In this document: positions 8,169-55,703 of the stretch, in pieces
How positions within the stretch are numbered: position 1 is the stretch's first letter
How the letters are laid out: each line of letters starts with the position of its first letter
Assembly (NCBI RefSeq): GCF_013167455.1
Contig: NZ_CP038328.1
Length of the DNA stretch: 64,000 bases
Strand: one strand, 5' to 3'
Source: Escherichia coli O157:H7
GTDB lineage: Bacteria > Pseudomonadota > Gammaproteobacteria > Enterobacterales > Enterobacteriaceae
The notes under the pieces: generated by a model
What the model was told of the DNA's origin: nothing
Databases searched by the model: none
What the model saw: only the letters and a program-made list of their open reading frames with translations
Made by a program: the position numbers and the translations under genes

Positions 8169-9428
8169 ATGACGGAACAAGAAAAAACCTCCGCCGTGGT
8201 TGAAGAGACCAGGGAGGCCGTGGACACCACGTCACAACCTGTCGCAACAGAAAAAAAGAGTAAGAACAATACCGCATTGATTCTCAGCGCGGTGGCTATC
8301 GCTATTGCTCTGGCGGCGGGCGTCGGTTTGTATGGCTGGGGTAAACAACAGGCCGTCAATCAGACCGCCACCAGCGATGCCCTGGCTAACCAACTGACGG
8401 CATTGCAAAAAGCCCAGGAGAGCCAAAAAGTCGAGCTGGAAGGCATTATTAAGCAACAAGCTGCACAGCTTAAGCAGGCGAATCGTCAGCAAGAAACGCT
8501 GGCAAAACAGTTGGATGAAGTCCAACAAAAGGTCGCCACCATTTCCGGCAGCGATGCTAAAACCTGGCTGCTGGCTCAGGCCGATTTTCTGGTGAAACTC
8601 GCCGGACGGAAGCTGTGGAGCGATCAGGACGTCACGACCGCTGCAGCGTTGCTGAAAAGTGCAGACGCCAGCCTGGCGGATATGAATGACCCGAGTCTGA
8701 TTACCGTTCGTCGGGCAATTACCGATGATATCGCCAGCCTTTCTGCAGTATCGCAGGTGGATTATGACGGCATCATCCTTAAGCTTAATCAGCTTTCAAA
8801 TCAGGTAGATAACCTGCGTCTGGCCGATAATGACAGCGATGGTTCGCCGATGGATTCCGACGGTGAAGAGCTTTCCAGTTCCATCAGCGAATGGCGTATC
8901 AATCTGCAAAAAAGCTGGCAGAACTTTATGGACAACTTCATTACGATTCGCCGTCGTGATGACACCGCCGTACCGCTGTTAGCGCCAAATCAGGATATCT
9001 ATCTGCGCGAAAATATTCGCTCTCGCCTGCTGGTCGCAGCACAAGCTGTACCGCGTCACCAGCAAGAGACTTATCGCCAGGCGCTGGAGAACGTCTCCAC
9101 CTGGGTACGTGCTTACTACGATACTGATGATGCCACCACCAAAGCGTTCCTCGACGAGGTAGACCAGTTAAGCCAGCAAAATATCTCGATGGATCTTCCG
9201 GAAACCCTGCAAAGCCAGGCGATGCTGGAAAAACTGATGCAGACTCGCGTGCGTAACCTGCTGGCACAACCGGCAGCGGGGACAACGGAAGCTAAACCTG
9301 CACCTGCACCTGCACCTGCACCTGCACCTGCACCTGCACCTGCACCTGCACCTGCACCTGCACCTGCACCTGCACCTGCACCTGCACCGCAAGCTGATAC
9401 TCCGGCAGCCGCGCCGCAAGGAGAATAA
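8169..9428 (+). CDS. hemX: HemX membrane protein with expanded C-terminal (Pro-Ala)15 tract
   Basis: 419-aa [21 protein letters not shown]..., single TM segment, coiled-coil rich; C-terminal PA repeat. Confidence 0.88.
9297..9386 (+). repeat. Perfect hexanucleotide microsatellite (CCTGCA)15, in frame within hemX
   Basis: 15 uninterrupted CCTGCA units read directly from the sequence, codon-aligned to hemX (cct gca = Pro-Ala). Confidence 0.95.
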
Positions 9429-10673: not shown

Positions 10674-10880
10674 TAAAAAAACGCCTGCTCTTATTACGGA
10701 GCAGGCGTTAAAACAGGTCTGTATGACAACAAGTGGGTGCTTCACTCAACGTTGTGTCCATGGTGTCTGATGAGGCATAAGCGACATCTGTCAGTGGACG
10801 ATAAGCACCGTAAACGGCTCTGCGTCATTCCGGAGTTTATGAGGCACTAAGGCGAACATAAGAGATGGAATGAGCATCTA
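10674..10880 (-). ncRNA. glmZ: GlmZ small RNA (Hfq/RapZ-dependent activator of glmS)
   Basis: Minus-strand sequence GTAGATGCTCATTCCATCTCTTATGTTCGCC...CGCCTGCTCCGTAATAAGAGCAGGCGTTTTTTT matches the GlmZ sequence as I recall it; ends in an 11-bp perfect stem plus U7 terminator; hemY-aslA intergenic location. Confidence 0.85.
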
Positions 10881-11305
10881 CTCGTTTATTATGCCACAGA
10901 GAATCGGGAAATAACATCCCTTAACACTTGTTATGAGATAATTCTGTAATCCTCTTTGCTTCCTGAGTAATAACTTCCTGAGTGAATATTTAACCTGAGC
11001 TTGATCCTACACATACTTATTATGAATGATAAAATTCATTCAATTAATAACACATATATTAATTGCCGTTAAAACTAAAAACAGCATCAATAATCAACGC
11101 GATATAATAAACCTGCCTTACATATCAACTGCGCCAGAGGTAGGATTGAAAACGCTCTCCTGATTTTTAAATTCATTTCTTGGATAAATAAATAATTTAT
11201 TTTTATCACTATTATTTATGTAATCATCCTGTCAGGGAGAGGGATCTCAATTATCAATGCTTAATTACGTCATCATTTTGTTGACATGAAACCGGAGCAT
11301 TTTGC

Positions 11306-13128: not shown

Positions 13129-14364
13129 TTACTTACTCACCACCAGCAAATGCGCCTGCATAATGTCGCTGGCCGGGCGACCGTGCGCCAGCAAATCAGC
13201 CATTGCTTTAAGATATGGCGGTAGATGGCGGAAATAACGCTGATACCCGGCACACAAATAATTCAGTCCCGGTTTGCCGCTGGCATCGAGCATGAAGCGG
13301 TGTTTCGGGCAGCCTCCCCAACATGCTTTTAACACGTTACAACTGCGACACTGCGCCGGTAATTGCTTAAATTTATCTTCACCAAACACCTGCTGTTGCG
13401 GGGAATCGATCATTTCTGCAATTGTTTGCTGGTGCATATTCCCCAGTCGATATTGCGGATAAACATAGTGATCGCAGGCGTAAACGTCGCCATTGTGCTC
13501 AACAATCACCGAGCGCCCACAGGTTGGCTGATGATGGCAAACCGCACCCGGCGCACCGACAAAATTGGCAAACGCCCATTCGATATTCATCACGAAAATC
13601 TTGCCGACGTCGCGTTTAATCCAGTGGTCGAATATCGCCACCAGAAATTCACCAAATTCATCGGGGCGCACAGACCATTCCGTCAGTTCCCCCTGAATAT
13701 CACCAGGCGCATGTAGTTTCAGTCCTTCGCGGGCAGTCGTTTCATCAGCCAGGCGCTCGACCACCGGAATAAACTGGATGAATTCGACTCCCGCATCGCA
13801 CAAAAAATCATAAACCTGTAACGGTTGCTGCGCGCTGGTGCGGTTGACGCAGACCAGCACGTTATAGTCGACATGATGTTTTTGCAGGAGCGTCAGGGCA
13901 CGCATCACCAGTTTATGCGTGGGTCTGCCGCCTTTTGTCACGCGATATTGATTGTGGATCTCAGCCGGACCATCCAGCGATAACCCAACAAGAAAATGAT
14001 TTTCTGCCAGAAATGCACACCATTCATCATCGAGCAGTACGCCGTTAGTCTGGAAGCTGTTACTTATCTTCCTGCCAGCACCATATTTCGCCTGTAGCGC
14101 CACGGCACGGCGGTAAAACTCCAGCCCGAGTAGCGTTGGTTCGCCGCCCTGCCAGGTAAAAGCCACTTCGTTTTGCGGTTCGCTGGCAGCGATATAGTGA
14201 CGGACATACGCTTCCAGCGTGTCATCGTCCATATGCGTGACTGGCTTTTCGCGGTAAAGGGATTGTTTTTCGAGATAAAAACAGTAGTCACAGTTCAGAT
14301 TACAATCGGAACCGCTCGGTTTCGCCATCACATGAAAAGCACGCGTTGGAACCTGTTGCAGCAT
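13129..14364 (-). CDS. aslB: Anaerobic sulfatase-maturating enzyme homolog (radical SAM)
   Basis: Translation MLQQVPTRAFHVMAKPSGSDCNLNCDYCFY... (CxxxCxxC radical-SAM motif); track ORF extends 10 codons upstream. Confidence 0.9.
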   Translation of the reverse strand: MLQQVPTRAFHVMAKPSGSDCNLNCDYCFYLEKQSLYREKPVTHMDDDTLEAYVRHYIAASEPQNEVAFTWQGGEPTLLGLEFYRRAVALQAKYGAGRKISNSFQTNGVLLDDEWCAFLAENHFLVGLSLDGPAEIHNQYRVTKGGRPTHKLVMRALTLLQKHHVDYNVLVCVNRTSAQQPLQVYDFLCDAGVEFIQFIPVVERLADETTAREGLKLHAPGDIQGELTEWSVRPDEFGEFLVAIFDHWIKRDVGKIFVMNIEWAFANFVGAPGAVCHHQPTCGRSVIVEHNGDVYACDHYVYPQYRLGNMHQQTIAEMIDSPQQQVFGEDKFKQLPAQCRSCNVLKACWGGCPKHRFMLDASGKPGLNYLCAGYQRYFRHLPPYLKAMADLLAHGRPASDIMQAHLLVVSK

Positions 14365-14475
14365 GGTCGCTCCTTGCCTGAAGTCATCCTTCAATACGTT
14401 AAGGGCGAAATCATACCGTGGGGCAATGAGTTATTACGGGCGTTTATTGCGAAGGGAGGGTGACGAAATGCACAG

Positions 14476-14504
14476 AAAACAAAAAACCCCGCCGAAGCGG
14501 GGTT
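14476..14504 (-). terminator. Intrinsic terminator of the tRNA operon (downstream of proM)
   Basis: Minus-strand hairpin AACCCCGCUUCGGCGGGGUU followed by U-rich run. Confidence 0.7.
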
Positions 14505-14510
14505 CAAAAT

Positions 14511-14587
14511 TGGTCGGCGAGAGAGGATTCGAACCTCCGACCCACTGGTCCCAAACCAGTTGCGCTACCAAGCTGCGCTACTCGCCG
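14511..14587 (-). tRNA. proM: tRNA-Pro (anticodon UGG)
   Basis: 77-nt reverse-complement match to canonical E. coli tRNA-Pro incl. encoded CCA. Confidence 0.95.
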
Positions 14588-14629
14588 AAATACTGCTTTT
14601 TGAATTTTTAGTTCAATTCTTTAAAGTCG

Positions 14630-14716
14630 TGGTGCGAGGGGGGGGACTTGAACCCCCACGTCCGTAAGGACACTAACACCTGAAGCTAGCGCGTCTACCA
14701 ATTCCGCCACCTTCGC
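14630..14716 (-). tRNA. leuT: tRNA-Leu (anticodon CAG), distal copy
   Basis: 87-nt match to E. coli tRNA-Leu(CAG) with long variable arm and CCA. Confidence 0.93.
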
Positions 14717-14736
14717 ATTGTCACAACTTCTAATAA

Positions 14737-14813
14737 TGGGGTGGCTAATGGGATTCGAACCTCCGACCCACTGGTCCCAAACCAGTTGCGCTACCAAGCT
14801 GCGCTACTCGCCG
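14737..14813 (-). pseudogene. Chimeric tRNA-like element: tRNA-Pro(UGG) 5' body fused at the T-loop to the tRNA-His 3' T-stem/acceptor strand
   Basis: Read 5'->3' on minus strand: CGGCGAGTAGCGCAGCTTGGTAGCGCAACTGGTTTGGGACCAGTGGGTCGGAG (proM-identical) + GTTCGAATCCCATTAGCCACCCCA (hisR-identical); acceptor and T stems no longer base-pair. Confidence 0.85.
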
Positions 14814-14855
14814 AAATACTGCTTTTTGAATTTTTAGTTCAATTCTTTAAAGTCG

Positions 14856-14942
14856 TGGTGCGAGGGGGGGGACTTGAACCCCCACGTCCGTAAGGACACT
14901 AACACCTGAAGCTAGCGCGTCTACCAATTCCGCCACCTTCGC
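14856..14942 (-). tRNA. leuT: tRNA-Leu (anticodon CAG), proximal copy
   Basis: Identical 87-nt sequence to the copy at 14630-14716. Confidence 0.93.
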
Positions 14943-14962
14943 ATTGTCACAACTTCTAATAA

Positions 14963-15039
14963 TGGGGTGGCTAATGGGATTCGAACCCACGACAACTGGA
15001 ATCACAATCCAGGGCTCTACCAACTGAGCTATAGCCACC
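14963..15039 (-). tRNA. hisR: tRNA-His (anticodon GUG)
   Basis: 77-nt match to E. coli tRNA-His incl. extra 5' G(-1) and CCA. Confidence 0.95.
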
Positions 15040-15096
15040 ACTACAAATCTTGTTACGCGGTATTACTACCACCGCAGCTCAAGCGCCGGGACTAAA

Positions 15097-15173
<77 letters not shown>

Positions 15174-15186
15174 TTAGCGCCGTTGC

Positions 15187-15240
15187 GGGGGTGGATAATA
15201 CGGACTTCCCCCCCCTCTGTCTAGTCCCTTTTTAAATAAA
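15187..15240 (-). promoter_or_regulatory. Sigma-70 promoter of the tRNA operon (-35 TAGACA, 17-bp spacer, -10 TATTAT, GC-rich discriminator, AT-rich upstream)
   Basis: Minus strand: TAGACA (15218-15223), TATTAT (15195-15200), then CCACCCCCGC before argX 5' end; inference from consensus. Confidence 0.6.
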
Positions 15241-15275
15241 TTGCGCGTTTGGTTACGGTTTGTGCGTTTTGCTGC

Positions 15276-16661
15276 TTATTCCTCCAGTTTATGCGCTTTC
15301 CCGTGGCGATTAAGGCCAAAAACTTTATAAATCGCCGTCACCGCCAGCATAAAGATGATGCCAACAAACAGCGACATACGCGTATCTTCATTAAAGTACA
15401 TGCCGATCAAAACGCAAATCAGGAATGCCATTGTTACGTAGTTGGCCCACGGGAACAGGATTGAGCGGAACGGATGGCTGGCAATCGCCGCTTTATGTGC
15501 ACGCCGAAAACGCAGCTGGCTTATCAATATCACAAACCATGGCACCATCCCCGGAAGCACGCTGGCACTGTAGACGTAGACAAACACACGCTGCGGATTG
15601 GGAATGATGTAGTTCAGGCATGAGCCAATTAGCAGAATAGCAATAGATACTGCCACACCCGCAACCGGTACGCCGTGACGGGAAACTTTCGCCATCGCCG
15701 CCGGTAACTGACGGTTTTTCGCCAGTGCGTAGAGCATACGTCCGCAACTGTACATGCCGCTGTTACAGCCAGAGAGCGCAGCCGTCAGCACCACAAAGTT
15801 GATAATGCCCGCCGCTGCGGTAATACCGATTTTGGCAAAAGTCAGTACGAACGGGCTGCCGTTGCTGCCTATTTCATTCCACGGGAAGATGGTGACGATA
15901 ACGAAAATCGCGCCAACGTAGAAAATCAGGATCCGCCACAGCACCTTGCCTACGGCACTGCGCAGCGTCACCTGCGGATTCTTCGCTTCACCGGCAGTAA
16001 TGCCAATCAGCTCCACGCCCTGGTAGGACGCCACCACAATACACAGCGCGGTCAGGAACCCTTTCCAGCCACCCGCAAAGAAACCGCCATGCTCTGTGAG
16101 ATTGCTAAAACCAATCGACTGCCCGCCATTGCCAAAGCCAAAGAAAATCACGCCCAGGCCAATGACAATCATCACGATAATCGTGGTGACTTTGATCATC
16201 GCGAACCAGAACTCGATTTCGCCGTACAACCGCACCGCTGCCAGATTCGCCAACGCCACCAGCGCCACTGCGATCAATGCGGGTATCCACTGCGCCATCT
16301 CCGGGAACCAGAACTGGACATAAACGCCAATGGCGGTGATTTCAGAGATCCCCACCGCCATCCACATAAACCAGTAAGACCAGGCGGTGAGATAGCCAAA
16401 GAACGGGCTCATATAACGATGCGCATAAACGGCGAACGAACCGGTAACCGGTTCGAGGAACAACATTTCGCCCATTGAACGCATGATGAAAAAGACGAAC
16501 AGCCCGGCGATGATATAGGCCAACAATACGGATGGCCCGGCCCATTTCAGGGTACTGGCGGCCCCCATAAACAGGCCGACGCCAATGGTGCCCCCCAGGG
16601 CGATGAGTTCGATATGTCGAGCTTCCAGCCCACGCTGTAGCTCTGGTTTGTTATCTGCCAT
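15276..16661 (-). CDS. yifK: Amino-acid permease family transporter YifK
   Basis: 461-aa polytopic membrane [36 protein letters not shown]... (APC-type N-terminal motif). Confidence 0.9.
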
Positions 16662-31457: not shown

Positions 31458-31787
31458 TTACGCCAGGTTAGCGTCGAGGAACTCTTTCAACTGACCTTTA
31501 GACAGTGCGCCCACTTTGGTTGCCGCCACTTCACCGTTTTTGAACAGCAGCAGAGTCGGGATACCACGGATGCCATATTTCGGCGCAGTGCCAGGGTTTT
31601 GATCGATGTTCAGTTTTGCAACGGTCAGTTTGCCCTGATATTCGTCAGCGATTTCATCCAGAATCGGGGCGATCATTTTGCACGGACCGCACCACTCTGC
31701 CCAGAAATCGACGAGGATCGCCCCGTCCGCTTTGAGTACATCCGTGTCAAAACTGTCGTCAGTCAGGTGAATAATTTTATCGCTCAT
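31458..31787 (-). CDS. trxA: Thioredoxin 1
   Basis: Translation [41 protein letters not shown]... (WCGPC active site); track ORF has a 35-codon upstream extension. Confidence 0.97.
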
Positions 31788-31917
31788 ATATAACTCCACA
31801 GGAATAAGCCTGGCGTGTTGGTTTCGTTGTTGGTGTAACATTAACCAACTAAAGGTTGACTTTATTTCACCGGATACGCTTTCGTAAAGCAATAGTAAGC
31901 TGATATTCTACCACACT

Positions 31918-47089: not shown

Positions 47090-47188
47090 CTAAGCCTTTC
47101 CTCGTCCAAGTGCAGCCCCGCACGGTGGGATAATAATCACCACCACGCTAATCACGACCAGGCTAATCACTCGTAGAAGGGCTGTCAT
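47090..47188 (-). CDS. ilvL: ilvGMEDA leader peptide (Val/Ile/Leu-rich)
   Basis: 32-codon minus-strand ORF MTALLRVISLVVISVVVIIIPPCGAALGRGKA. Confidence 0.9.
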   Translation of the reverse strand: MTALLRVISLVVISVVVIIIPPCGAALGRGKA

Positions 47189-47540
47189 TTTGTCTTTTCT
47201 TGCATCTTGTTCGAAGGAATGCCTAAAGAGTTACCATAGATTTTGCGAATAGCACAAGATATTTTTTGGCCGTTTTTTATGATGGCTTTAATAATTTCAA
47301 TAGAAATTGTTGTTTTTTAAAAAGAAAATAGTGAGTGAAAAAAATTCAATTTCAGTACGAATGTTGTTCCCTCCCTCGTAGTTCATCCTTTGTCCGCTGC
47401 ATTTTTGCGAGCATCATTCCACCGCCAGAACAACTCAACTTCACTTGCACAAATAAACAGGAATCAGCCACTAAAATTCACGAATTAGCGGGCTACAGCA
47501 GCGATATCTTATGCACATAATGGTGACTCAAGGAGGGCTT

Positions 47541-50477: not shown

Positions 50478-50553
50478 TGGCAGGGGCGGAGAGACTCGAA
50501 CTCCCAACACCCGGTTTTGGAGACCGGTGCTCTACCAATTGAACTACGCCCCT
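50478..50553 (-). tRNA. trpT: tRNA-Trp (anticodon CCA), distal gene of rRNA operon
   Basis: 76-nt reverse-complement match to E. coli tRNA-Trp. Confidence 0.95.
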
Positions 50554-50561
50554 AATTAGGG

Positions 50562-50638
50562 TGGCGGAACGGACGGGACTCGAACCCGCGACCCCCTGCG
50601 TGACAGGCAGGTATTCTAACCGACTGAACTACCGCTCC
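50562..50638 (-). tRNA. aspT: tRNA-Asp (anticodon GUC), distal gene of rRNA operon
   Basis: 77-nt reverse-complement match to E. coli tRNA-Asp. Confidence 0.95.
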
Positions 50639-50690
50639 ACCGAATTCTTTTACAACCACCGGTTTTATGACCGGCTTACTGCTTAATTTG

Positions 50691-50810
50691 ATGCCTGGCA
50701 GTTCCCTACTCTCGCATGGGGAGACCCCACACTACCATCGGCGCTACGGCGTTTCACTTCTGAGTTCGGCATGGGGTCAGGTGGGACCACCGCGCTAAGG
50801 CCGCCAGGCA
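50691..50810 (-). rRNA. rrfC: 5S ribosomal RNA
   Basis: 120-nt match to E. coli 5S rRNA (minus strand begins TGCCTGGCGGC..., ends ...CCAGGCAT). Confidence 0.95.
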
Positions 50811-50902
50811 AATTCTGTTTTATCAGACCGCTTCTGCGTTCTGATTTAATCTGTATCAGGCCGAAAATCTTCTCTCATCCGCCAAAACACCTTCGGCGTT
50901 GT

Positions 50903-53807
<2,905 letters not shown>

Positions 53808-54000
53808 TCACAACCCGAAGATGTTTCTTTCGATTCATCATCGTGTTGCGAAAATTTGAGAGACTCACGAACAACTCTCGTTGTTCAGTGTTTCAATTTT
53901 CAGCTTGATCCAGATTTTTAAAGAGCAAATATCTCAAACATCACCCGAAGATGAGTTTTGAGATATTAAGGTCGGCGACTTTCACTCACAAACCAGCAAG

Positions 54001-54076
54001 TGGCGTCCCCTAGGGGATTCGAACCCCTGTTACCGCCGTGAAAGGGCGGTGTCCTGGGCCTCTAGACGAAGGGGAC
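54001..54076 (-). tRNA. gltU: tRNA-Glu (anticodon UUC) in the 16S-23S spacer
   Basis: 76-nt reverse-complement match to E. coli tRNA-Glu. Confidence 0.95.
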
Positions 54077-54161
54077 GTATCAGTCTGCTTCGCAAGACGC
54101 CTTGCTTTTCACTTTCTATCAGACAATCTGTGTGAGCACTGCAAAGTACGCTTCTTTAAGG

Positions 54162-55703
<1,542 letters not shown>

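What the first reader, a model, noticed from the sequence alone, without database searches (positions are those of the whole stretch)
14737..14813. Chimeric Pro/His tRNA-like gene at the duplication junction
The junction element has the tRNA-Pro(UGG) 5' acceptor strand, D-arm and anticodon arm, joined at the T-loop to the tRNA-His 3' T-stem and acceptor strand. The 5' strand CGGCGAG cannot pair with 3' UAGCCAC, and the T-stem has two mismatches, so it should not fold as a cloverleaf. It sits inside a strongly transcribed operon with native spacers on both sides, so it is probably transcribed and processed. It may be a rapidly degraded pseudo-tRNA, or a rare tRNA-derived fragment source.
Basis: inference. 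Interest (0 to 1): 0.6.

Follow-up and report, generated by a model that had tools for sequence, protein, structure and literature searches.

The report
Pro/His hybrid pseudo-tRNA from tRNA-operon duplication
A 226-base stretch of the E. coli argX-hisR-leuT-proM tRNA operon is duplicated in the O157:H7 lineage, which adds a second intact leucine tRNA gene and leaves at the join a half-proline, half-histidine tRNA-like remnant that almost certainly cannot work as a tRNA; this is an ordinary by-product of unequal recombination.

Summary
Window 14737-14813 (- strand) is a 77-nt element. Its first 63 nt match tRNA-Pro(UGG) proM and its last 25 nt match tRNA-His hisR; the two overlap in the 11-nt T-loop core GGTTCGAATCC. 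It is the junction of an exact 226-bp tandem duplication, giving argX-hisR-leuT-[chimera]-leuT-proM under one promoter and one terminator.

In the normal register only 2 of 7 acceptor pairs and 3 of 5 T-stem pairs form. The cloverleaf is worth -1.9 kcal/mol against an MFE of -24.4. Rfam scores it 34.6 bits against 65.8 and 69.7 for its parents. ARAGORN and Rfam detect it only through an acceptor helix shifted by 1 nt.

The exact junction is in 287 of 5,426 complete E. coli genomes; every one named by serotype is O157. It is absent from O55:H7 CB9615 and from 100,044 species-representative genomes. Three genomes carry the unit three times.

The Sakai reference labels it tRNA-Pro ("tRNA51"); NCBI's annotation pipeline (PGAP) leaves it blank.

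Best reading: an inert recombination scar that is co-transcribed, cut out by RNase E, not matured or charged, and degraded. The functional change is one extra leuT copy. Low interest; a new instance of a known kind.

The parts
15195..15223 (-). argX operon promoter-like site (TAGACA-17-TATTAT). It is the only promoter-like site in 14350-15450.
   Evidence: An A/T-rich stretch lies upstream and a G+C-rich stretch downstream in the sequence.
15097..15173 (-). argX, tRNA-Arg(CCG), intact
   Evidence: ARAGORN; Rfam 64.1 bits
14963..15039 (-). hisR, tRNA-His(GUG) including the encoded G-1 at 15039; intact. Donor of the chimera's 3' end.
   Evidence: 69.7 bits; cloverleaf MFE, z = -2.85
14856..14942 (-). 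leuT copy 1, tRNA-Leu(CAG), intact
   Evidence: 48.5 bits
14814..14855 (-). Exact copy of the leuT-proM spacer, forming the 5' leader of the chimera. In K-12, RNase E cuts this spacer 3, 4 and 15 nt upstream of proM.
   Evidence: Lies inside the 100% identical repeat. RNase E sites from PMC5291269 and PMC3985628; their transfer to this copy is inferred.
14737..14813 (-). Pro(5')/His(3') chimeric pseudo-tRNA, 77 nt, anticodon UGG, ending ...UAGCCAC-C-CCA
   Evidence: (34.6 bits)
14751..14761 (-). Crossover interval: the 11-nt T-arm core GGTTCGAATCC (G52 G53, T-loop, C61 C62), identical in argX, hisR and proM
   Evidence: (repeat boundary at 14750/14751)
14717..14736 (-). Exact copy of the hisR-leuT spacer, forming the 3' trailer of the chimera and the 5' leader of leuT copy 2
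   Evidence: The RNase E cut 1-2 nt after the tRNA-His CCA is; its transfer to this copy is inferred.
14630..14716 (-). leuT copy 2, tRNA-Leu(CAG), intact and identical to copy 1. This is the functional gain of the duplication.
14511..14587 (-). proM, tRNA-Pro(UGG), intact. Donor of the chimera's 5' 63 nt.
   Evidence: (65.8 bits)
14484..14505 (-). Rho-independent terminator of the operon. It is the only terminator-like site in 14350-15450.
14525..14976 (.). The two 226-bp tandem units (14525-14750 and 14751-14976), 100% identical

Best explanation
The element is a recombination scar. An unequal exchange between sister or misaligned chromosomes took place within the 11-nt identity GGTTCGAATCC in the T-arms of hisR and proM. 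This duplicated the 226 bp between them. The product is argX-hisR-leuT-[proM 5' 63 nt | hisR 3' end]-leuT-proM. It keeps hisR and proM intact, adds a second intact leuT in native leader and trailer context, and leaves a Pro/His hybrid at the novel joint.

The event happened once, on the branch leading to E. coli O157:H7 after its split from O55:H7, and is now near-fixed in that clone. The copy number still changes occasionally, as shown by the triplications.

Inferred steps:
- The hybrid is co-transcribed from the argX promoter.
- It is released as a species of about 81-94 nt. RNase E cuts in its copied spacers (3, 4 or 15 nt upstream, 1-2 nt downstream of CCA), and RNase P cuts at the 5' end of leuT copy 2.
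- It lacks an acceptor/T-arm coaxial stack, so RNase P does not mature it.
- It lacks the acceptor identity elements of both ProRS (it has C72 and C73 where tRNA-Pro has G72 and A73) and HisRS (position -1 is U where tRNA-His has G-1), so it is not aminoacylated.
- It is removed by the poly(A) polymerase/PNPase/RNase R pathway that clears defective tRNAs.

Its biological effect is therefore nil or slightly costly. The only functional change from the duplication is one more tRNA-Leu(CAG) gene.
For: Shown here:
- Exact 226-bp tandem repeat with its boundary in the shared 11-mer.
- Both parental genes are intact on either side.
- One promoter and one terminator for the whole array.
- Canonical register pairs 2 of 7 in the acceptor and 3 of 5 in the T stem. 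Cloverleaf energy is -1.9 kcal/mol against an MFE of -24.4, and the z-score is -0.02 against -1.59 (proM) and -2.85 (hisR).
- Rfam gives 34.6 bits against 65.8 and 69.7.
- Position -1 is U; positions 72 and 73 are C and C.
- The junction is in 287 of 5,426 genomes, all O157 where named, compared with 305 genomes carrying the O157 wzy gene. It is absent from O55:H7 CB9615, from K-12 and from 100,044 species representatives.
- Strain 319 has a triplication, and 290 junctions occur in 287 genomes.
- None of the other five possible T-loop recombinant junctions of this operon occurs anywhere in the 5,426 genomes, and a positive control retrieved the 287.
- PGAP does not annotate the element.

From the literature:
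- RNase E sites E1-E5 in the K-12 precursor (PMC3985628).
- Cuts 3, 4 and 15 nt upstream of proM and 1-2 nt after the tRNA-His CCA (PMC5291269).
- The first nucleotide (C1) is part of the ProRS recognition element and governs the position of the RNase E cut after the CCA (PMC8860583).

From my own knowledge, not checked here: HisRS needs G-1:C73, ProRS needs A73/G72, and defective tRNA is degraded through PAP I/PNPase.
Against: - No expression data were available. Transcription, excision, lack of maturation and decay are all inferred.
- A fold with a 1-nt-shifted acceptor helix (6 of 7 pairs) lies only 1.1 kcal/mol above the MFE. ARAGORN, Rfam and the Sakai annotators all accept the element as tRNA-Pro on that basis.
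- Near-fixation in 287 genomes, with no sequence decay, could be read as selection. However, the O157:H7 clone is too young for neutral decay to be visible, and the linked extra leuT could be the selected part.
- A single origin is inferred from clonal distribution and identical flanks. No phylogeny was built.
Confidence: 0.85

Rival explanations
1. It is a working extra tRNA-Pro(UGG) gene, as annotated in the Sakai reference genome (tRNA51, ECs_R0111). It would use the shifted acceptor helix G2-U8 / A64-C70.
For: ARAGORN calls tRNA-Pro(tgg). Rfam scores 34.6 bits, above the gathering score of 29. The shifted register pairs 6 of 7, and a four-way fold with it costs only +1.1 kcal/mol. The D arm, anticodon arm and UGG anticodon are intact. 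Sakai annotates it as a tRNA.
Against: - The shifted helix consumes U8 and two T-stem nucleotides. This leaves a 2-bp T stem and one linker nucleotide before the D stem.
- In the low-energy version of the fold the T-loop is replaced by a different hairpin, so the D-loop/T-loop elbow needed by RNase P, EF-Tu and the ribosome is lost.
- The 3' tail would be A-CCCCA, not N-CCA.
- The helix would start G:C, and changing C1 to G in proline tRNAs blocks charging by ProRS (PMC8860583).
- PGAP does not call it.
- The score is about half that of every neighbouring class I tRNA.
Confidence: 0.03
2. The excised hybrid, or a fragment of it, is a stable non-tRNA RNA with an activity of its own. Possibilities are a tRNA-derived fragment, an Hfq/sRNA sponge like spacer-derived RNAs of other tRNA operons, a decoy for ProRS (which reads the anticodon), or a folding competitor of hisR and proM in the precursor.
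For: It is made in an operon with a stable-RNA-type promoter and has native RNase E sites on both sides. Its D and anticodon arms still fold. In a fold of the whole 710-nt precursor, the MFE pairs the chimera's 5' acceptor strand with proM's 3' strand. In the ensemble, chimera-proM accounts for 1.45 expected pairs against 5.38 for proM-proM, and hisR-chimera for 2.8 against 4.33 for hisR-hisR. It has been retained in 287 genomes.
Against: - Nothing here shows accumulation.
- The isolated element folds no better than shuffled sequence (z = -0.02).
- Equilibrium folding ignores co-transcriptional folding and fast RNase E cleavage, both of which favour local tRNA folds.
- Retention in a young clone carries no information about selection.
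- No literature on such an RNA was found.
Confidence: 0.08
3. It is an assembly or collapse artefact of repetitive tRNA sequence.
For: Tandem repeats of tRNA genes can be mis-assembled.
Against: The identical junction is in 287 complete genomes from many laboratories and over two decades. These include Sakai and EDL933, and cover variants with 2 and 3 units. The repeat unit of 226 bp is shorter than a single read on most platforms.
Confidence: 0.01

Closest known systems
E. coli K-12 argX-hisR-leuT-proM tRNA operon
   Same: Same promoter, genes, spacers and terminator. All four parental tRNAs are intact here. Its processing by RNase E (sites E1-E5) and RNase P is well characterised (PMC3985628, PMC5291269).
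   Different: This window has an extra 226-bp unit (the 3' end of hisR, a spacer, leuT, a spacer and the 5' part of proM). That gives six tRNA-like units instead of four. K-12 genomes have no junction match.
tRNA gene copy-number change by tandem duplication (for example Pseudomonas fluorescens SBW25 serTGA and glyGCC, PMC10954465)
   Same: Tandem duplication raises the dosage of a tRNA gene. Copy number is dynamic: 2 and 3 units are seen here.
   Different: Those duplications are 45 kb to 1 Mb, unstable, and have endpoints outside the tRNA genes. This one is 226 bp, has endpoints inside two different tRNA genes, produces a hybrid gene, and is stably inherited in a natural clone.
Partial or non-canonical tRNA gene fragments mis-categorised as canonical tRNA genes (van der Gulik et al. 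2023, PMC9897764)
   Same: A low-scoring, non-canonical tRNA-like sequence is listed as an ordinary tRNA in a reference annotation (Sakai tRNA51).
   Different: The fragments described there come from integration of genetic elements, CRISPR-Cas activity or ambiguous bases. Here the source is unequal recombination between two neighbouring tRNA genes of different isotype.
Spacer-derived regulatory RNAs of tRNA operons (for example the 3'ETS of glyW-cysT-leuZ acting as an sRNA sponge; my own knowledge, not checked here)
   Same: A non-tRNA by-product released from a polycistronic tRNA precursor by RNase E.
   Different: No evidence here of stability, Hfq binding or sRNA complementarity. This is only a lead.

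Membership tests
Canonical functional bacterial tRNA (tRNA-Pro) | 7-bp acceptor stem pairing nt 1-7 with 66-72 | tested here: not met
   2 of 7 pairs in register. Only a register shifted by 1 nt gives 6 of 7.
Canonical functional bacterial tRNA (tRNA-Pro) | 5-bp T stem closing the conserved 7-nt T-loop | tested here: not met
   G-U, G.A, A.C, G-C, G-C, which is two mismatches. ARAGORN draws only 2 solid pairs.
Canonical functional bacterial tRNA (tRNA-Pro) | Cloverleaf is the thermodynamically favoured fold | tested here: not met
   Cloverleaf -1.9 against MFE -24.4 kcal/mol; z = -0.02. proM and hisR both give cloverleaf MFEs.
Canonical functional bacterial tRNA (tRNA-Pro) | Covariance-model score comparable to genuine tRNAs | tested here: inconclusive
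   Rfam RF00005 gives 34.6 bits, above the gathering score of 29 but about half the score of proM (65.8) and hisR (69.7). tRNAscan-SE itself was not available.
Canonical functional bacterial tRNA (tRNA-Pro) | ProRS identity elements: anticodon G35 G36, plus A73 and the C1:G72 pair | tested here: not met
   The UGG anticodon and C1 are present, but positions 72 and 73 are C and C. Role of the first nucleotide: PMC8860583. A73/G72 come from my own knowledge.
tRNA-His | G-1 paired with C73, and a GUG anticodon | tested here: not met
   C73 is present, but the nucleotide at -1 is U and the anticodon is UGG. The HisRS requirement comes from my own knowledge.
Hybrid pseudogene created by unequal recombination (tandem-duplication junction) | Flanked by exact direct repeats whose boundary falls in a sequence shared by the two parents | tested here: met
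   226-bp units at 100% identity. The boundary is in the 11-nt core common to hisR and proM.
Hybrid pseudogene created by unequal recombination (tandem-duplication junction) | Both parental genes are retained intact on either side, in the order predicted (X ... [Y5'|X3'] ... Y) | tested here: met
   hisR-leuT-[Pro5'|His3']-leuT-proM.
Hybrid pseudogene created by unequal recombination (tandem-duplication junction) | The ancestral unduplicated state is present in close relatives | tested here: met
   O55:H7 CB9615 has Arg-His-Leu-Pro, with flanks matching the window at 99.9% over 1,950 bp on one side and 99.3% over the alignment that spans the collapsed repeat on the other. 5,139 other E. coli genomes lack the junction.
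Stable tRNA-derived or spacer-derived regulatory RNA | Accumulates in vivo and binds a partner (Hfq, an sRNA, an mRNA or a protein) | not testable with these tools
   No RNA data could be searched. No paper was found.

The most novel reading that the evidence does not exclude
The hybrid may not be inert. It carries exact copies of proM's 5' three-quarters and of hisR's 3' quarter. It could therefore compete in the polycistronic precursor for proM's only 3' acceptor strand. It could also compete for hisR's 5' strand. hisR is the sole tRNA-His gene and proM the key tRNA-Pro gene (my own knowledge), so such competition would lower or modulate their yield. Alternatively it could accumulate as an uncharged, anticodon-bearing decoy or tRNA fragment specific to the O157:H7 clone.
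Probability: 0.08. Interest if true: 0.5.

Novelty: new member of a known kind. Interest (0 to 1): 0.22.

Why it matters
The practical points are modest.

1. The Sakai reference genome lists this element as an ordinary tRNA-Pro. tRNA counts and codon-adaptation models built on that annotation overcount tRNA-Pro(UGG) by one. They should instead note five (sometimes six) tRNA-Leu(CAG) genes, against four in K-12 (the K-12 count is from my own knowledge).

2. The junction 41-mer is a compact marker. It is present in 287 of the 305 O157-wzy genomes and in none of the other lineages sampled. It is absent from O55:H7 CB9615.

3. It is a clean natural example of an 11-nt T-loop identity mediating unequal exchange between tRNA genes of different isotype. 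Of the six possible junction types in this operon, this is the only one that both adds an intact tRNA and loses none, and it is the only one observed. That pattern fits purifying selection on hisR and proM.

4. It offers a ready natural substrate for studying bacterial tRNA quality control, if anyone wants one.

Tried and rejected
- **Literature.** Searches for hisR/leuT/proM + O157, 'chimeric tRNA' + 'tandem duplication', leuT + O157 + duplication, the Sakai gene names, 'hybrid tRNA' + unequal recombination, and tRNA pseudogene + O157/Sakai found no description of this element.
- **O55:H7 to O157:H7 comparison paper.** Its main text does not contain the words 'tandem' or 'duplication', and its four mentions of tRNA do not concern this operon.
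- **Withers et al. 2006 (RNA 12:933).** This is the most likely place for a prior description, but it is not held in the library.
- **Exact 30-nt junction in 100,044 species-representative genomes.** No hits, so there is no evidence of recurrence in other species.
- **The five other possible T-loop recombinant junctions of this operon.** No hits in 5,426 E. coli genomes. The search format was validated by a positive control.
- **First 41-mer search at a loose E-value.** It also matched ordinary hisR at 90% identity and could not separate carriers from non-carriers. Repeating it at E <= 1e-8 solved this.
- **Functional tRNA through a shifted acceptor.** Rejected. It destroys the T arm, gives a G:C first pair and an A-CCCCA tail, and C1-to-G proline tRNAs are not charged.
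- **Assembly artefact.** Rejected.
- **Not done.**
  - I did not determine which of the 18 O157-wzy genomes that lack the junction are H7 and which are other H types. At least some are O157:H16.
  - I did not determine the serotype of the 5.1-Mb pig isolate NJS001, which carries the junction.

Full report
**What is there**

On the - strand, window 15223-14484 holds the argX tRNA operon. ARAGORN finds six tRNA-like genes in a row: Arg(CCG) 15173-15097, His(GUG) 15038-14963, Leu(CAG) 14942-14856, 'Pro(UGG)' 14813-14739, Leu(CAG) 14716-14630 and Pro(UGG) 14587-14511. Repeat analysis shows an exact tandem duplication of 226 bp, 14525-14750 and 14751-14976, at 100% identity (TRF period 226, 2.0 copies, 100% matches).

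Its nt 1-63 are identical to proM and its last 25 nt are identical to hisR. The two parents overlap in the 11-nt T-arm core GGTTCGAATCC (14751-14761), which argX, hisR and proM all share.

**Origin**

The gene order is hisR-leuT-[Pro 5' | His 3']-leuT-proM. This is the order expected from an unequal exchange between the T-loop of hisR on one copy and the T-loop of proM on the other. Both parents stay intact. Everything between them, including leuT and both spacers, is duplicated. The novel joint is a Pro/His hybrid.

The spacers around the hybrid are therefore exact copies. The 42-nt leuT-proM spacer lies upstream and the 20-nt hisR-leuT spacer lies downstream. Only one promoter-like site (TAGACA-17-TATTAT, 15223-15195) and one terminator (14505-14484) occur in 14350-15450. 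The hybrid must therefore be co-transcribed with its neighbours.

**Can it be a tRNA?**

- In the canonical register the acceptor strands form 2 of 7 pairs. The T stem is G-U, G.A, A.C, G-C, G-C.
- With non-pairs removed, the cloverleaf is worth -1.9 kcal/mol, against an MFE of -24.4 kcal/mol that is not a cloverleaf. The element folds no better than shuffled sequence (z = -0.02). proM and hisR give cloverleaf MFEs with z = -1.59 and -2.85.
- Rfam's tRNA model scores it 34.6 bits. That is just above the gathering score of 29, against 65.8 for proM and 69.7 for hisR.
- Rfam and ARAGORN both reach their calls through the same trick. The acceptor helix is shifted by one nucleotide (G2-U8 with A64-C70) and has 6 of 7 pairs with a G.A mismatch. 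It consumes U8 and two T-stem nucleotides and leaves a 2-bp T stem.
- A four-way fold with that helix lies only 1.1 kcal/mol above the MFE. In it, however, the T-loop is replaced by a different hairpin and the 3' tail is A-CCCCA.
- Identity elements are also wrong for both parents. Position -1 is U, not G-1, so the His element G-1:C73 is missing. Positions 72 and 73 are C and C, not G and A, so the Pro acceptor elements are missing (the requirements are from my own knowledge).
- Mohanty et al. showed that the first nucleotide of the proline tRNAs is part of the ProRS recognition element and governs the position of the RNase E cut after the CCA (PMC8860583). The shifted fold would begin with G:C, the very change that abolished charging in that study.

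**Predicted fate (inferred, not tested)**

In K-12 the precursor is cut by RNase E at five sites in the AU-rich single-stranded spacers (PMC3985628). These include cuts 3, 4 and 15 nt upstream of proM and 1-2 nt after the CCA of tRNA-His (PMC5291269). The same sequences flank the hybrid.

The hybrid should therefore be released as a species of about 81-94 nt. It has no acceptor/T-arm stack, so RNase P should not mature it. It should then be cleared by the polyadenylation-dependent decay that removes defective tRNAs (my own knowledge). Both leuT copies keep native leaders and trailers and should mature normally. The net functional change is one extra tRNA-Leu(CAG) gene.

**Distribution**

- The 41-nt junction occurs at 100% identity in 287 of 5,426 complete E. 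coli genomes, at 290 places. Every carrier named by serotype is O157:H7 or O157, including EDL933, Sakai, TW14359 and EC4115-type strains.
- For comparison, 305 genomes carry the O157 wzy gene, and these include non-H7 types such as O157:H16.
- O55:H7 CB9615, a close relative of the clone, has the plain Arg-His-Leu-Pro operon with almost identical flanks.
- K-12, BL21 and all other sampled lineages lack the junction.
- No exact junction was found in 100,044 species-representative genomes.
- Three genomes have two junctions. In strain 319 the operon reads Arg-His-Leu-x-Leu-x-Leu-Pro, which is a triplication by further unequal exchange.
- None of the other five possible T-loop recombinant junctions occurs in any genome: Arg5'/His3', Arg5'/Pro3', His5'/Arg3', His5'/Pro3' and Pro5'/Arg3'. 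The same query format retrieves the 287 carriers when the observed junction is added.
- Three of those five are deletions, which would remove argX, hisR and/or proM (the two that remove hisR or proM are presumably lethal; my own knowledge of gene essentiality). One adds no intact tRNA. The observed type adds a tRNA and loses nothing.

**Annotation status and literature**

The Sakai reference annotates the hybrid as a tRNA-Pro: 'tRNA51', ECs_R0111, 75 nt, anticodon tgg. It names the neighbours leuT1, leuT2 and proM2. The extra unit has therefore been in public annotation for years, but as an ordinary tRNA.

PGAP-annotated genomes leave the interval blank. In EDL933 and strain 319 the locus-tag series skips exactly one number at each hybrid. 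This suggests that a feature was once called there and later dropped (inference).

I found no paper describing the hybrid. The most likely source, Withers et al. 2006, is not in the library. The case fits the general problem of non-canonical tRNA fragments being listed as canonical tRNAs (PMC9897764). It also fits the known flexibility of tRNA gene copy number through tandem duplication (PMC10954465).

**A loose end**

I folded the whole 710-nt precursor at equilibrium. In the MFE the hybrid's 5' acceptor strand pairs with proM's 3' strand. In the ensemble:

| Pairing | Expected pairs |
|---|---|
| chimera 5' strand with proM 3' strand | 1.45 |
| proM 5' strand with proM 3' strand | 5.38 |
| hisR 5' strand with chimera 3' strand | 2.8 |
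| hisR 5' strand with hisR 3' strand | 4.33 |

. This is expected, because the hybrid carries exact copies of those strands. Co-transcriptional folding and fast RNase E cleavage should favour the local tRNAs. The result is still the only concrete route by which the scar could have a cost or an effect.

**Verdict**

The element is a recombination scar, a Pro/His hybrid pseudo-tRNA that marks a lineage-specific 226-bp duplication whose functional content is an extra leuT. It is a new, well-documented instance of a known kind. It is mildly useful as an annotation correction and clone marker, and of low general interest unless RNA data show that it accumulates.

Noticed in passing
window 9296-9388 (+ strand, 3' end of hemX): A perfect hexanucleotide tandem array, (ACCTGC) x 15.5, encodes a (Pro-Ala)n tract at the C-terminus of HemX. 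There are 15 units here, 5 in Sakai (L005), and no run of 4 or more in O55:H7 CB9615 (L003). It is a hypervariable in-frame VNTR within a coding gene.
   Followed up: partly
L004 (strain 319, NZ_CP018241.1) 1183-2071: The 226-bp unit is present three times (Arg-His-Leu-x-Leu-x-Leu-Pro). Three of the 287 carrier genomes have two junctions, so copy number still changes by unequal exchange.
   Followed up: partly
L005 (Sakai NC_002695.2) 1268-1342; L001 (EDL933) 1501-1639: The annotations conflict. Sakai lists the hybrid as tRNA-Pro 'tRNA51' (ECs_R0111). PGAP genomes leave it blank, and their locus-tag numbering skips one tag at each hybrid (RS25250 to RS25260 in EDL933; RS26190 to RS26200 to RS26210 in strain 319).
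   Followed up: yes
window 14478-15187 (- strand), whole operon precursor: In an equilibrium fold of the 710-nt precursor, the MFE pairs the hybrid's 5' acceptor strand with proM's 3' strand, giving a long-range 'split' tRNA-Pro, and misfolds proM's own 5' part. The ensemble still favours the local proM and hisR helices.
   Followed up: partly
L002 (NJS001, NZ_CP114130.1, pig gut, China): A 5.1-Mb genome, small for O157:H7, carries the junction with 3 kb of flank 100% identical to the window, but has a different ThrP protein accession. Its serotype and lineage were not determined.
   Followed up: no
E. coli genome collection: With the 139-nt query, some genomes show up to 6 matching places, and 2 places lie on plasmids. 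This suggests larger duplications or plasmid-borne copies of parts of this operon in a few strains.
   Followed up: no
window 10675-10881, 31758-31857, 46970-47259, 50478-55703: Ordinary known RNA features on the - strand: GlmZ sRNA (218 bits), the trxA 5'UTR thermometer, an Rfam 'Rev39 5'UTR' match that contains a 15-nt tandem repeat (47134-47170), and a complete rrn operon (16S, tRNA-Glu, 23S, 5S, tRNA-Asp, tRNA-Trp).
   Followed up: no
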